Source: Syntrophomonas sp. DTU018
Lineage (GTDB): Bacteria > Bacillota > Syntrophomonadia > Syntrophomonadales > Syntrophomonadaceae
NCBI GenBank assembly: GCA_001513155.1
Contig: LFSR01000042.1
Span: 16,961 to 80,960, forward strand
Length of the DNA stretch: 64,000 nucleotides
Direction of reading: 5' to 3'
Within the stretch, counting starts at the first letter, position 1; each line of letters begins with the position of its first letter. The position numbers were made by a program, and so were the translations under genes. Positions 6,161 through 59,412 of this stretch are shown in pieces. Under the pieces are notes generated by a model that was given only the letters and a program-made list of their open reading frames with translations, made no database searches and was not told where the DNA came from.

Positions 6161-6452
6161 GGTTGCTGTGAAAGCTGTGAATAAGAGATTGCCACGCCCC
6201 GTCGGGGCTCGCAATGACAATTAAGAATTCCTTTCATAGCGATGACAGGCTTAAGTTTTCGTTTATCGTGGCCTGTTATTCAGGTGACAATTGCGAGCGC
6301 AGCGAAGCAATCTCTAACGATGCCTGCAAATATGTGAACGAGATCGCCACGGCACTATGTGCCTCGCGATGACACATAAGAAAGCTTCTCTGCGATGCCA
6401 CGGCACTTCGTGCCTCGCGATGACACAAAAGGACGCCATTTTCACAGCAATA
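6161..6452. repeat. Repeat cluster A: four ~35-bp core units of the GAGATYGCCACG...CTCGCRATGACA family plus accessory modules
   Basis: Units at 6185-6219 (+), 6283-6315 (-), 6340-6374 (+) and 6391-6424 (+). Outer inverted TTGCTGTGAAA modules lie at about 6163-6173 and 6439-6449. 6239-6277 is the exact reverse complement of 28295-28333. Confidence 0.9.
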
Positions 6453-22811: not shown

Positions 22812-23055
22812 AAAATAAAAAACTTTCGCCCAAGGGACGAAAGTGTTTTTCCGCGGTACCACCCTAGTTAGCCTGAAAGCTCAGCTTTCAGGCTCCCTCT
22901 TCTCCGGTAACGGCGGTAACCGATAGAACCTACTGCTAGTTCAGTTCCCAGCTCCCAGGTGAATTCACCTGATCCTATCCCTGGCTGTACTTCCAGTCGC
23001 GGTACAGCCTCCCTGTAGGGCATCCTATCAGGCTACTTGTCCTGTTCATCGCATT
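22812..23055 (-). promoter_or_regulatory. T-box riboswitch leader, Phe specifier (UUC)
   Basis: Minus strand has a stem I start at TGCGATGAACAGGACAAGTAG. The specifier loop reads GAA-UUC-A (UUC at 22963-22961) and the T-box is GGGTGGTACCGCG (22852-22865). The terminator is ACTTTCGTCCC-TT-GGGCGAAAGT followed by TTTTTTATTTT. Confidence 0.9.
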
Positions 23056-23232
23056 TATAATATGAGACCTATTGAGTAATCAACATCTTATATAACAGAT
23101 AATATATGATGCAACCAGAACTCTCAAATAGCTGCCACAAGGCCTGGGCTGTGTCCACGCTAACGCCCACCCTTCCACCGTAATGTCTGGGGTCGGAATT
23201 AAAGTCATTATATCATACCGGTAAATTCTCCA

Positions 23233-27512: not shown

Positions 27513-28121
27513 CTAGTAAAACAGTATCATAATAACCATTTGCACTAAACCAATAATAAACCCCAGGACCCCGCCCAGGATCTCAATAGAGCGCAATTCT
27601 GTGGAAGCTACTCCTCGCACCATTTCTTCCAGTTGATCCAGGTCAAACTGGTTGATTTTATCTTCTACTATCTGCTTTATCTGAATCTCGGAGGTTAAGT
27701 ATTCCCGGACTGATTCTACCGCCTGGCTGATGATCTGACCGGCTTCCTGCCGTACCACCTTTTCCAAAGTATCACCAATCAGCTGTATAACCTTTCCAGG
27801 AATAATTCGCGGCAGCATACTGTCCAGCTTGGTCCGCATTACCTCGCTTACGGCAGCAACTAATCGCTCTCTTACTTCCGGGGTATTGACTTGGTCTATT
27901 ACTTCATCCAGGGACAGTAATTGCTCTTCAACCAATTGGCCTACATTGGCGGCAATATCGGCTTGTCTTTTCGGCAATACTCCCTGTAATGTAAAAAGGC
28001 CCAGATTAACAGGCTGTTTTGGCCAAAAGAGCAGTCGTATCGCCACTACATTAGTTATGTACCCAATTAATGCACTAATTAAGGGCAATGTCAGTAAAGC
28101 GTACACTTCTGCATCCACCAA
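27513..28121 (-). CDS. DUF445-like membrane protein
   Basis: GYITNVVAIRLLFWP N-terminal motif. TTG start with weak RBS; 28 nt upstream of thrS. Confidence 0.6.
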   Translation of the reverse strand: MVDAEVYALLTLPLISALIGYITNVVAIRLLFWPKQPVNLGLFTLQGVLPKRQADIAANVGQLVEEQLLSLDEVIDQVNTPEVRERLVAAVSEVMRTKLDSMLPRIIPGKVIQLIGDTLEKVVRQEAGQIISQAVESVREYLTSEIQIKQIVEDKINQFDLDQLEEMVRGVASTELRSIEILGGVLGFIIGLVQMVIMILFY

Positions 28122-28214
28122 TCTAATTTTACCTAATGAATATAGCAGATTTTGCTGTCACCCGCAATCACACCAGCCCTTTCTCCATGAAAAAAGGCTG
28201 CCTTGCGGCAGCCC

Positions 28215-28527
28215 CAGACTGTAAAAGAAGTCTGTTAGCGGTTCGACGTTCGAGATTGCCACGCCCCTCCGGGGCTCGCAATTGTCACCAGTAGAACAGG
28301 CCACGATAAACGAAAACTTAAGCCTGTCATCGCGAGGAGCGAAGCGACGTGGCGATCTGTTAACTCACACCGTTAGTTGCCATAGAGATTGCCACGCGCT
28401 ACGCGCTCGCAATGACACAATTGGGAGCTATTTTCACAGCAATGACACATAAGATGGCCTTTTGGTATGTCATCGCGAGGAGCGCAGCGACGTGGCGATC
28501 TCTTTTAGCAACTTTTTTGACACTCTC
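28215..28527 (+). mobile_element. 313-bp ORF-less element (expanded copy) flanked by a 20-bp duplicated hairpin
   Basis: Termini are CAGACTGTAAAAGAAGTCT ... TTTTTTGACACTCTC. Core units lie at 28252-28288 (+), 28325-28358 (-), 28385-28417 (+) and 28468-28502 (-). Flanking direct repeats AGGCTGCCTTGCGGCAGCCC occur at 28195-28214 and 28528-28547. Confidence 0.85.
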
Positions 28528-28565
28528 AGGCTGCCTTGCGGCAGCCCGGTATTTATGCTGCAATT

Positions 28566-31122: not shown

Positions 31123-31274
31123 CAGACTGTCAAAGAAGTCTATTAGCGGTTCGACGTTCGAGATTGCCACGCCCCTCCGGGGCTCGCAATGACACATAAG
31201 ATGGCCTTTTGGTATGTCATCGCGAGGAGCGAAGCGACGTGGCGATCTCTTTTAGCAACTTTTTTAACACTCTC
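31123..31274 (+). mobile_element. 152-bp ORF-less element (archetypal copy) flanked by a 22-bp duplicated hairpin
   Basis: Termini are CAGACTGTCAAAGAAGTCT ... TTTTTTAACACTCTC. Inverted core units lie at 31160-31194 and 31215-31249. Flanking direct repeats GAGCGGGGTTCCAAACCCCGCT occur at 31101-31122 and 31275-31296. Confidence 0.9.
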
Positions 31275-39265: not shown

Positions 39266-39330
39266 GATGTTAAAAGAGATCGCCACATTGCTGAGTTCCT
39301 CGCGATGACACAATCGGAGGCCATCATATG
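39266..39330 (+). repeat. Solo half-copy of the repeat element (one core unit plus partial linker)
   Basis: GTTAAAAGAGATCGCCAC-ATTGCTGAGT-TCCTCGCGATGACA (unit 39276-39310) then GGCCATCATATG. This resembles the R-end half of the 152-bp element in reverse orientation. Confidence 0.7.
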
Positions 39331-48184: not shown

Positions 48185-48277
48185 AAGATCGTTCAAAGCG
48201 CTAGCGATCTTCATATGAGATTGCCACGCCTTTATCGCTCCTGTTAAGTGGGAGCTTTGATAAAGGCGTGGCAATCT
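48185..48277. repeat. Two hairpins derived from the repeat family between convergent genes
   Basis: The first is AAGATCGTT-N9-AGCGATCTT (48185-48211). The second is a perfect 19-bp stem, AGATTGCCACGCCTTTATC ... GATAAAGGCGTGGCAATCT (48218-48277), with an inner GCTCC/GGAGC stem. It is followed by GTTATTTTA. Confidence 0.8.
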
Positions 48278-48283
48278 GTTATT

Positions 48284-59259: not shown

Positions 59260-59412
59260 GAGAGTGTCAAAAAATTAGCTAAAAGAGATCGCCACGTCGC
59301 TTCGCTCCTCGTGATGACATAACCAAAAGGCCATCTTATGTGTCATTGCGAGCCCCGGAGGGGTGTGGCAATCTCGAACGTCTAACCGCTAAAAGACTTC
59401 TTTGACAGTCTG
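59260..59412 (-). mobile_element. 153-bp ORF-less element (second near-identical copy) flanked by a 28-bp duplicated hairpin
   Basis: The reverse complement differs from 31123-31274 at about 8 positions. Core units lie at 59285-59319 and 59341-59375. Flanking direct repeats AAGCTGCCCCTTGTTTAAGAGGCAGCTT occur at 59232-59259 and 59413-59440. Confidence 0.9.

What the first reader, a model, noticed from the sequence alone, without database searches (positions are those of the whole stretch)
6340..6424. Core unit architecture: conserved 12-mers flanking a mini-hairpin whose stem covaries between copies
Units share GAGATYGCCACG on the left and CTCGCRATGACA on the right, while the 9-13 nt between them changes but stays self-complementary. 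The variants are GCCCC-gtc-GGGGC (6196-6208), GCCCC-tcc-GGGGC (28.26 kb, 31.17 kb, 59.35 kb) and GGCAC-tat-GTGCC (6351-6363). Further variants are GGCAC-ttc-GTGCC (6401-6413), GCGC-tac-GCGC (28.39 kb) and a 19-bp extended stem at 48.2 kb. A second unit type carries AGCGAAGCGA or AGCGCAGCGA instead. Each complete element pairs one unit of each type. Compensatory change with retained pairing argues that the structure (DNA hairpin or RNA) is selected, for example as a protein recognition site. Simple sequence drift would not preserve pairing.
Basis: seen in the sequence. Interest (0 to 1): 0.6.

Follow-up and report, generated by a model that had tools for sequence, protein, structure and literature searches.

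The report
Hairpin DNA repeats of Ssn nucleases
The 35-base units are a real, structure-conserving hairpin repeat (about 400 copies in this genome and present in many bacterial phyla) that elsewhere brackets a tiny GIY-YIG nuclease gene, so they belong to the recently described Ssn nuclease / hairpin-repeat systems rather than being a new kind of element.

Summary
The unit GAGATYGCCACG-[centre]-CTCGCRATGACA occurs about 405 times in this 2.56-Mb genome. 93% of copies lie outside long ORFs, mostly as inverted A/B pairs and mosaic arrays. Both an outer 5-bp stem (ATYGC/GCRAT) and the inner mini-hairpin covary. Exact copies of the two 12-mers occur in well over ten phyla with dozens of different, still-pairing centres.

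No Rfam family matches, and no RAYT gene lies near the units. Instead, in Bacillota, Chloroflexota, Gammaproteobacteria, a sister species (G003) and 38-47 of 80 metagenome loci, the units tightly bracket a ~95-aa single-domain GIY-YIG gene. The unit often starts at its stop codon.

This is the architecture published in 2025 for Ssn nucleases and their NTS/SRM hairpin repeats (PMC11893778). Read on the other strand, the unit is TGTC-ATYGC…GCRAT-C, the same frame as NTS. Its invariant non-stem bases sit where that paper mapped the binding and cleavage determinants.

The differences:
- The unit is two-tiered with a free inner hairpin.
- It fails the published SRM search pattern (0/405).
- This genome has no ssn gene.
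- 76 units ride in an IS1182-type MITE.

Verdict: a new member of a known kind, of moderate interest.

The parts
6185..6219 (+). Type-A unit, centre CCCCGTCGGGG
   Evidence: Folds as ...(((((...(((((...)))))..)))))...., -7.4 kcal/mol as DNA; the opposite strand gives -8.1.
6286..6314 (-). Degenerate unit (GAGATTGCTTCG-CTGCG-CTCGCAAT) joined at GCAAT to a 42-copy linker module
6340..6374 (+). Type-A unit, centre GCACTATGTGC (start of the finding)
   Evidence: MFE -7.7 kcal/mol, z -2.4.
6390..6425 (+). Type-A unit, centre GCACTTCGTGC, with a 1-nt deletion in the left 12-mer
28252..28282 (+). Type-A unit interrupted after GCAAT by the linker module
28325..28359 (-). Type-B unit (bottom strand reads ...GAGGAGCGAAGCGACGTG...)
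28385..28417 (+). Type-A unit, short centre CGCTACGCG
28468..28502 (-). Type-B unit (AGCGCAGCGA)
31160..31194 (+). Type-A unit inside the 152-bp MITE
31215..31249 (-). Type-B unit inside the 152-bp MITE, 20 nt from its partner
39276..39310 (+). Solo degenerate B-like unit (centre TTGCTGAGTTC, non-pairing)
48217..48278 (.). Half-unit palindrome: the left 12-mer paired with its own reverse complement. Not a standard unit.
   Evidence: 3 such in the genome.
59285..59319 (+). Type-B unit inside a MITE copy in opposite orientation
59341..59375 (-). Type-A unit, centre CCCCTCCGGGG

Best explanation
The units are Ssn-type hairpin repeats. They are a sequence variant of the NTS/SRM motifs that small single-domain GIY-YIG nucleases of the Ssn family recognise on single-stranded DNA.

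Read on its bottom strand, a unit is 5'-TGTC-ATYGC-GAG-[variable stem-loop]-CGTG-GCRAT-CTC-3'. When that strand is single-stranded (replication, repair, incoming transforming DNA), it folds into three parts:
- an outer 5-bp stem;
- a small conserved internal loop;
- a free inner hairpin.

The nuclease reads the conserved bases, namely GTC 5' of the palindrome, the outer stem, and the C 3' of it. By analogy with SsnA, it nicks a few nucleotides upstream. The inner hairpin only has to close, which explains why it covaries freely and varies from 5 to more than 40 nt.

The ancestral arrangement is unit(-) / ssn gene / unit(+), which looks like an insertion sequence. Gene-less inverted pairs and mosaic arrays are its non-autonomous derivatives.

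In this genome no ssn gene is assembled, so the ~405 units are orphans or served in trans. About a fifth of them were multiplied passively inside a 152-bp IS1182-type MITE.

What is shown: the structure, the covariation, the distribution and the gene association. What is inferred from the literature: ssDNA binding and cleavage. What is only inferred: the mobility mechanism and any present-day function in this organism.
For: Exact units occur in more than ten phyla with many different pairing centres.

Covariation is seen in both helices.

Units flank a ~95-aa GIY-YIG (PF01541, E 1.4e-16) ORF in Oscillospiraceae, Dehalococcoidales and Gammaproteobacteria.

Of 80 metagenome ssn-like loci, 47 (loose criteria) or 38 (strict) have a unit within 120-150 bp.
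- Unit density is 3.5 per kb near the gene against 0.31 per kb further away.
- Upstream units are mostly on the - strand (24 of 29) and downstream units mostly on + (21 of 29).
- The unit often begins at the stop codon, as in TGA|GAGATTGC.

The generic frame GTC-ATxxx…xxx'AT-C lies next to 69 of 80 genes. The controls give 0.4% in shuffled flanks and 3 of 26 at 1 kb away.

The same-genus genome G003 has an ssn-like gene bracketed by these units.

The outer-stem sequence clusters on the nuclease tree: 13 changes against 28.6 in shuffles, 0 of 500.

PMC11893778 reports the following.
- SsnA (94 aa, GIY-YIG, cd10448) binds NTS (CGTCATTCCCGCGMAVGCGGGAATCYRG) only as ssDNA on one strand and cuts upstream.
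- The C after the palindrome is critical for binding, and the 3 nt before it for cleavage.
- The loop is dispensable.
- NTS-ssnA-NTS is IS-like.

In our alignment the bases complementary to that C (G3) and to GTC (G32 A33 C34) are at least 90% invariant.

Units are intergenic: 7.2% lie in long ORFs against 83.7% of the genome.

The clusters at 28.2 kb and 6.2 kb are absent at the orthologous sites of sister species.
Against: - No ssn gene or remnant is found in this 99.9%-complete genome. G001, the other unit-rich genome of the genus, has only a weak GIY-YIG hit.
- The units match the published degenerate SRM pattern in 0 of 405 cases, and 0 of 388 external units match.
- B-type units are not predicted to fold by the DNA energy model.
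- No biochemical test exists for this motif variant.
- I could not verify the cd10448 assignment of the flanked proteins, nor see the paper's supplementary motif lists.
- The gene-unit association could also arise if the gene homes into pre-existing repeats.
Confidence: 0.8

Rival explanations
1. REP/BIME elements served by a RAYT (Y1 HUH) transposase, as in E. coli and Pseudomonas REPINs.
For: The units are ~35-nt imperfect palindromes present in hundreds of intergenic copies. They form inverted pairs and an alternating array of 14. The genome encodes a RAYT-like ORF (NCBIfam REP_Tyr_transpos, 65.9 bits, E 3.4e-18).
Against: The RAYT score is below the curated cut-off of 80 bits. The gene is flanked by a different hairpin with the classical GTAG (GTAGGGGGCGATGcccaCATCGCCCC), which has its own 18 copies. 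The nearest units lie 2.5 kb away. No RAYT homologue lies near units in 114 loci from other phyla. The units have no GTAG.
Confidence: 0.04
2. A structured RNA motif (terminator, sRNA or cis-regulatory hairpin) selected at the transcript level.
For: The stems covary. Units are enriched between convergent genes: 27% of clusters against 11% background. Metatranscriptome contigs contain unit sequences.
Against: No Rfam family matches, even at E up to 10. Units occur in both orientations in equal numbers (122 against 121) and as inverted pairs. There is no G-U against A-C asymmetry (25 against 34). RNA depth is summed over ~400 copies and equals the flanking gene depth per copy. Characterised Ssn enzymes do not bind RNA. 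GNA triloops, about 40% of folded centres on the bottom strand, are a DNA-hairpin hallmark from my own knowledge.
Confidence: 0.06
3. The units are merely internal sequence of the 152-bp IS1182-type MITE and have no recognition role of their own.
For: 38 MITE copies each carry one A/B pair. The filled site at 28.2 kb against the empty site in G004 shows the terminator-hairpin duplication that earlier agents described.
Against: This explains only 76 of 405 units. The other units sit in other linker contexts. The unit alone, without the MITE arms, is conserved across phyla and flanks ssn-like genes.
Confidence: 0.03
4. The ssn-like gene is a homing-type parasite that targets pre-existing hairpin repeats, and the repeats themselves serve another host function or protein.
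For: 42 of 80 ssn-like loci lack a strict unit. The unit-rich genomes G000 and G001 lack a cognate gene.
Against: The gene and units are tightly integrated, with the stop codon abutting the unit and a fixed -/+ orientation. The nuclease lineage co-varies with the outer stem. Direct biochemical recognition has been shown for relatives (PMC11893778).
Confidence: 0.08

Closest known systems
NTS / dRS3 repeats and SRM motifs with SsnA (GIY-YIG, cd10448) nucleases: Chenal et al. 2025, Nat Commun 16:2388 (PMC11893778)
   Same: - It is a hairpin repeat with oriented conserved flanks in the same frame: GTC + AT-palindrome … AT + C.
- There are hundreds of mostly intergenic copies.
- A ~95-aa single-domain GIY-YIG gene is bracketed on both sides.
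- The loop or inner part is free to vary.
- Motif and nuclease lineages co-vary.
- The Oscillospiraceae variant TGTCATTCC…GGGAATCTC even shares ATTCC/GGAAT with dRS3.
   Different: - The outer stem is ATYGC/GCRAT.
- The hairpin is two-tiered, with a conserved internal loop (GAG / CGTG on the bottom strand) and a hypervariable inner stem-loop.
- There are two unit types, A and B (B has a TC/TC shell).
- 0 of 405 units match the published SRM pattern.
- The host here is a Gram-positive-type anaerobe from digesters.
- No ssn gene is present in this assembly.
REP / BIME / REPIN elements with RAYT transposases (E. coli, Pseudomonas)
   Same: These are short palindromic extragenic units in inverted doublets and alternating mosaic arrays. 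A small nuclease gene flanked by its own repeats acts on ssDNA hairpins.
   Different: The enzyme class differs (HUH Y1 against GIY-YIG). The units have no GTAG. The RAYT-like gene of this genome has a separate 18-copy REP family.
Neisseria intergenic mosaic elements (NIMEs: RS blocks bounded by dRS3)
   Same: Both are mosaics of a few linker modules bounded by the hairpin repeat. Here a limited set of 5' and 3' flanks recurs 15-37 times each.
   Different: The sequences and the host phylum differ. The comparison rests on my knowledge of NIMEs and on the paper's text, not on an alignment.
IS1182-family MITEs that duplicate terminator hairpins (earlier agents' reading of 28.2, 31.1 and 59.3 kb)
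   Same: 38 genomic copies of the 152-bp element carry an A/B unit pair. The empty site in G004 confirms insertion into a terminator hairpin.
   Different: The units are the cargo or core of that element, not its termini. Most units lie outside it.

Membership tests
Ssn-related hairpin repeats (NTS/SRM) | Hairpin-forming inverted repeat of 20-50 nt with oriented, conserved non-palindromic flanks (GTC 5' of the palindrome, C 3' of it) | tested here: met
   359 of 405 units have GTC + ATxxx…xxx'AT + C with a perfect 5-bp outer palindrome. G3 and G32-A33-C34 are at least 90% invariant. The units fold as predicted.
Ssn-related hairpin repeats (NTS/SRM) | Match to the published degenerate SRM search sequence HGTCWYN(0-2)YYVSBRHN(0-5)WNVSBRGN(0-2)RNCYNB | tested here: not met
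   0 of 405 own units and 0 of 388 external units match. The pattern requires YY after GTCWY, whereas these units have TGC or CGC. This is an operational search pattern built from 29 genomes, not a functional definition. The unit therefore lies outside the published sequence definition.
Ssn-related hairpin repeats (NTS/SRM) | Repeats flank the gene of a small single-domain GIY-YIG (Ssn) nuclease, often on both sides | tested here: met
   Met in other genomes: 38-47 of 80 metagenome loci, three named MAG lineages, and same-genus G003. Not met in the window's own genome, which has no such gene.
Ssn-related hairpin repeats (NTS/SRM) | The flanked protein belongs to CDD family cd10448 / is homologous to N. 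meningitidis SsnA | not testable with these tools
   Only Pfam GIY-YIG (E 1.4e-16) and a weak PDB hit to UPF0213 BH0048 (1ZG2, E 1.7e-5) were obtained. No CDD library or SsnA sequence was at hand. The size (95-98 aa) and the Y…Y…E spacing agree with the paper's description.
Ssn-related hairpin repeats (NTS/SRM) | Bound and cut by the cognate nuclease as ssDNA only, on one strand, a few nt upstream | not testable with these tools
   Needs biochemistry. It is inferred from PMC11893778.
Ssn-related hairpin repeats (NTS/SRM) | Hundreds of mostly intergenic, clustered copies | tested here: met
   There are 405 units in 193 clusters, and only 7.2% lie in ORFs of at least 150 aa.
REP/BIME with RAYT | Conserved GTAG-type tetranucleotide next to the palindrome, and a RAYT gene flanked by the same REPs | tested here: not met
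   The units have no GTAG. The RAYT-like ORF is flanked by a different GTAG hairpin family of 18 copies. No RAYT lies near units elsewhere.
REP/BIME with RAYT | Inverted doublets and alternating arrays of two unit types | tested here: met
   80 of 96 two-unit clusters are A/B pairs. There is one (+A -B)x7 array at C8:1-805. This is a resemblance in organisation only.
Rfam structured RNA families | Covariance-model match | tested here: not met
   Only a T-box and a tRNA match in the window at gathering score. Nothing relevant appears at E up to 10 over 28100-28560.
IS1182-type MITE | Element ends plus duplication of the target hairpin; units would be part of the element | tested here: inconclusive
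   The hairpin duplication and the empty site were confirmed for 28.2 kb. 76 of 405 units lie in 38 such elements. I did not test the transposase link.

The most novel reading that the evidence does not exclude
This reading has three parts.
- The ATYGC two-tier unit defines a distinct, cross-phylum class of Ssn-cognate hairpins that the published SRM definition misses.
- The unit(-)/ssn/unit(+) module is a genuine autonomous transposon. It uses a GIY-YIG ssDNA nuclease as its only enzyme, and the gene-less inverted pairs are its MITE-like offspring.
- In this genome the repeats persist and stay homogeneous without a resident nuclease. That would imply trans-mobilisation, secondary amplification by a DDE-type MITE, or a host function independent of Ssn.
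Probability: 0.25. Interest if true: 0.65.

Novelty: new member of a known kind. Interest (0 to 1): 0.4.

Why it matters
- The unit ties a striking, very abundant repeat of an uncultured anaerobic-digester bacterium to a nuclease family whose biochemistry was only described in 2025.
- The published motif definition misses a large, phylum-spanning branch of these repeats. Surveys based on it therefore undercount Ssn-type systems in Bacillota, Chloroflexota, Bacteroidota and others.
- The natural variation makes concrete predictions for engineering Ssn enzymes as programmable ssDNA cutters: a free inner hairpin, fixed GTC and C, and outer-stem swaps that track the nuclease lineage.
- Orphan expansion without a resident nuclease bears on whether these repeats are selfish, domesticated or hitch-hikers.

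Tried and rejected
- RAYT/REP hypothesis. I searched the genome for Y1_Tnp and found one RAYT-like ORF, but it owns a different GTAG-hairpin family. tblastn of it against 114 unit loci found nothing.
- Unbiased clustering of ORFs within 1.5 kb of units in 114 loci gave no dominant family except the small GIY-YIG (3 loci). That became the lead.
- Rfam searches at gathering and at permissive thresholds found nothing relevant.
- A full-text search for the 12-mers returned only human primer hits. Searches for GIY-YIG with REP, COG2827 or YhbQ were uninformative. The Ssn paper surfaced with GIY-YIG + transposon + hairpin + bacteria. No follow-up papers were found, and its supplements are not held.
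- The published SRM regex gave 0 hits on units and 14 chance-like hits genome-wide.
- A permissive local tblastn for ssn remnants gave a best hit at C48:39964-40104 that lies inside a GGDEF-type protein and is spurious.
- I laid the G003 ssn locus on metagenome contigs of runs that hold this MAG. The gene body has no coverage at 80% identity or more. A 356-nt contig joins a unit to the start of a diverged ssn-like ORF (loose end reads …TNKVLYTGVT), but its depth ratios to the MAG vary from 0.4 to 2.1 times, so ownership is unresolved.
- Metatranscriptome contigs cover the units, but depth is summed over ~400 copies and DNA carry-over cannot be excluded. This is inconclusive.
- There is no wobble asymmetry (G·T against A·C) that would pick out the folded strand.

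Full report
**Observation.** The region 6340-6424 holds two direct copies of a 35-nt unit, GAGATCGCCACG-GCACTATGTGC-CTCGCGATGACA and a slightly damaged second copy. The window has ten complete units plus several degenerate ones. The 12-mers are over-represented: 17 matches against 6.6 expected, with 0 of 100 shuffles reaching 17.

In the whole 2.56-Mb assembly (59 contigs; the window is C21:16961-80960) I count 405 units at up to 2 mismatches per 12-mer. Of these, 243 are exact, against 0 for the reversed-pattern control.

**Anatomy.** The unit is a two-tier hairpin.
- The Y and R of the two 12-mers covary (C-G 244, T-A 145, other 16). ATYGC therefore pairs with GCRAT.
- Next comes a small asymmetric internal loop, CAC / TC on the top strand.
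- A closing G-C pair follows, and then the variable centre.

Centres fall into discrete types: CCCC-N3-GGGG, GCAC-N3-GTGC, CGC-N3-GCG, C-N3-G and CCCCT-N3-AGGGG. There is also a 'B' type, TC-GC-TNC-GC-TC.

As ssDNA, A-type units fold exactly as drawn, at -7 to -8 kcal/mol, and the bottom strand is slightly more stable. The energy model does not predict B-type units to fold. On the bottom strand, B reads GA-GC-GNA-GC-GA, which could form tandem G·A pairs and a GNA triloop. That is my inference and is not in the model.

On 94 distinct 35-nt units from this genome and from other phyla:
- 85.4% of cells pair, against 75.9% in shuffles.
- The covariation score is 0.288 against 0.118, reached by 0 of 500 shuffles.
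- Slid registers pair at only 27-44%.

Distinct centres close with at least 3 bp in 55% (own genome) and 70% (other sources) of cases. Shuffled centres do so in 12-13%. Thirty different 3-bp stem starts are seen.

**Organisation in this genome.**
- Units are intergenic: 7.2% lie in ORFs of at least 150 aa, which cover 83.7% of the genome. They are enriched between convergent genes.
- They occur singly (52 clusters), as pairs (96) and as arrays of up to 14 alternating units.
- Convergent pairs are spaced 20 nt apart and divergent pairs 24-27 nt.
- 80 of 96 two-unit clusters combine one A and one B unit.
- A limited set of linker modules recurs 15-37 times each, so the family is a mosaic.
- 38 copies of the 152-bp element that earlier agents read as an IS1182-type MITE each carry one A/B pair. 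That accounts for 76 of the 405 units.

The clusters are insertions. At 28.2-28.5 kb, sister species G004 has a single terminator hairpin where the window has the element between two copies of that hairpin. At 6.2-6.4 kb, G003 and G004 have only ~40-bp spacers.

**Distribution.** Within 40 relatives, the exact unit is confined to the genus, apart from one stray hit. The hosts include Dehalococcoidia, Oscillospiraceae/Faecousia, Bacteroidota (Mucilaginibacter, Leeuwenhoekiella), Nitrospirota, Thermodesulfobacteriota, Gammaproteobacteria, Rickettsiales, Armatimonadota, Acidobacteriota, Methylomirabilis, Acetothermia and a CPR bacterium. Several of these records are closed chromosomes.

In these loci the flanks are identical, while the centres differ widely and still pair. 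Examples are GCCCGTTGGGC, GGCCTGACGGCC, AGTTCTACGAACT and ACCAGTGTGCGCACTGGT. The outer stem also shows compensatory variants: ATTCC/GGAAT, ATGGC/GCCAT and ATTAC/GTAAT.

**What it is associated with.** The first idea was REP/RAYT. The genome has one RAYT-like ORF (NCBIfam REP_Tyr_transpos 65.9 bits, below the cut-off). It is flanked by a different hairpin carrying the classical GTAG, which has 18 copies of its own. No RAYT lies near units in other phyla.

Unbiased clustering of neighbouring ORFs instead picked out a ~95-aa GIY-YIG protein (Pfam E 1.4e-16). It lies next to units in an Oscillospiraceae MAG, a Dehalococcoidales MAG and a Gammaproteobacteria MAG.

A metagenome scan with an alignment of these three proteins returned 80 loci.
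- 47 loci (loose criteria) or 38 (strict) have a unit within 120-150 bp of the gene.
- Unit density near the gene is 3.5 per kb, against 0.31 per kb further out in the same loci.
- Upstream units are on the - strand in 24 of 29 cases, and downstream units on + in 21 of 29.
- In the canonical cases the upstream unit ends 4-60 nt before the ATG, and the downstream unit begins at or within a few bases of the stop codon, as in TGA|GAGATTGC.

The generalised frame GTC-ATxxx…xxx'AT-C lies next to 69 of 80 genes. It appears in 0.4% of shuffled flanks and in 3 of 26 controls taken 1 kb away.

The same-genus genome G003 has such a gene bracketed by these very units. A second gene in G003, and one in G009, are bracketed by a sister unit, TGTCATTCTGAG… / …CTCAGGATGACA. 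On a tree of the nucleases the outer-stem 5-mer is clustered: ATTGC needs 13 changes against 28.6 in shuffles, 0 of 500. One clade of 18 holds only non-ATTGC stems. The tree itself is poorly resolved.

**Comparison with the literature.** Chenal et al. 2025 (PMC11893778) describe exactly this kind of system.
- N. meningitidis SsnA is a 94-aa single-domain GIY-YIG protein (cd10448).
- It binds the hairpin repeat NTS (CGTCATTCCCGCGMAVGCGGGAATCYRG, whose core is dRS3) only as ssDNA and only on one strand. It cuts a few nucleotides upstream.
- It acts on neither dsDNA nor RNA.
- The cytosine just after the palindrome is most critical for binding. The three nucleotides before it are most critical for cleavage.
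- The loop is dispensable and can be replaced or extended.
- 71% of homologues have an 'SRM' motif nearby and 42% have one on both sides.
- The NTS-ssnA-NTS layout is noted to resemble an IS, and the analogy to REP/RAYT/BIME is drawn.
- In Neisseria the system lowers transformation by NTS-bearing DNA.

Read on its bottom strand, our unit is TGTC-ATYGC…GCRAT-CTC, which has the same frame. The positions complementary to that C, and the GTC itself, are at least 90% invariant in our alignment. The free inner hairpin mirrors the paper's loop-replacement experiments.

The unit nevertheless fails the paper's degenerate SRM pattern in 0 of 405 and 0 of 388 cases. Only 4 of the 80 ssn-like loci have a regex match nearby. 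This branch therefore lies outside the published sequence definition. I found no later paper on it.

**Open points.**
- This genome has no ssn gene or remnant, although it is 99.9% complete.
- Only 5 of 118 contig ends lie near a unit.
- In metagenome runs that hold this MAG, a short contig joins a unit to the start of a diverged ssn-like ORF. Its depth does not track the MAG, so ownership is unresolved.
- RNA contigs cover the units at about the per-copy depth of neighbouring genes, which is uninformative.
- ComEC is present, so DNA uptake is conceivable.

**Verdict.** The units are Ssn-type hairpin repeats: a new, widely distributed sequence member of a kind described in 2025. In this genome they are present as an orphan, partly MITE-borne expansion.

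Noticed in passing
G000 contig C2:13606-13910 (locus L001:1294-1810), outside the window: A RAYT-like 163-aa ORF (REP_Tyr_transpos, 65.9 bits) is followed by GTAGGGGGCGATGcccaCATCGCCCC. That GTAG-hairpin has ~18 copies genome-wide. It is a separate, small REP/RAYT system coexisting with the ~405 Ssn-type units.
   Followed up: partly
window 6248-6276 (-) and 28296-28324 (+): A 42-copy linker module (…ACAGGCCACGATAAACGAAAACTTAAGCC…) always joins a unit cut after GCAAT to the next unit's TGTCAT. It may be a distinct inserted element or a fixed tail-to-tail linker type.
   Followed up: partly
window 48217-48278: GAGATTGCCACG…CGTGGCAATCT is the left 12-mer paired with its own reverse complement, giving a ~19-bp perfect stem. 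It lies between convergent genes. Only 3 such half-unit palindromes exist in the genome.
   Followed up: partly
L228 (G003:C4:30900-32600), L229 (G009:C92:1400-3200), L134:4068-4150 (G004, syntenic to window ~31.0-31.35 kb): A sister hairpin family, TGTCATTCTGAG…GAAGAATCTT / AAGATCCTTCG…CTCAGGATGACA, flanks a second ssn-like gene lineage. It has 0 copies in the window's genome.
   Followed up: partly
G000 contig C8:1-805: An array of 14 alternating (+A -B) units starts at a contig end, so the true array may be longer.
   Followed up: no
runs X1, X5, X9, X12 laid on L227:1076-1151: A ~356-nt metagenome contig links a unit to the 5' end of a diverged ssn-like ORF (loose end encodes TNKVLYTGVT). 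It could be the missing nuclease gene of this organism or of a neighbour.
   Followed up: partly
L241 (G001:C20:5920-6540): At the site orthologous to window 6.2-6.4 kb, G001 has a unit whose TGTCATTGC and GCGAG halves are separated by a ~38-nt insert. About 300 nt of unrelated sequence follows it.
   Followed up: no
window 22830-23058 (-): A T-box leader (Rfam RF00230, 134 bits). It fits a Bacillota-type host and the thrS region noted by earlier readers.
   Followed up: no
L150, L178, L195, L208 and others (metagenome ssn loci): The stop codon of the nuclease ORF directly abuts or overlaps the first bases of the downstream unit (TGA|GAGATTGC, TAA|AAGATTGC, TAG|TAGATTGC). The nuclease mRNA would therefore end in its own recognition hairpin.
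   Followed up: no
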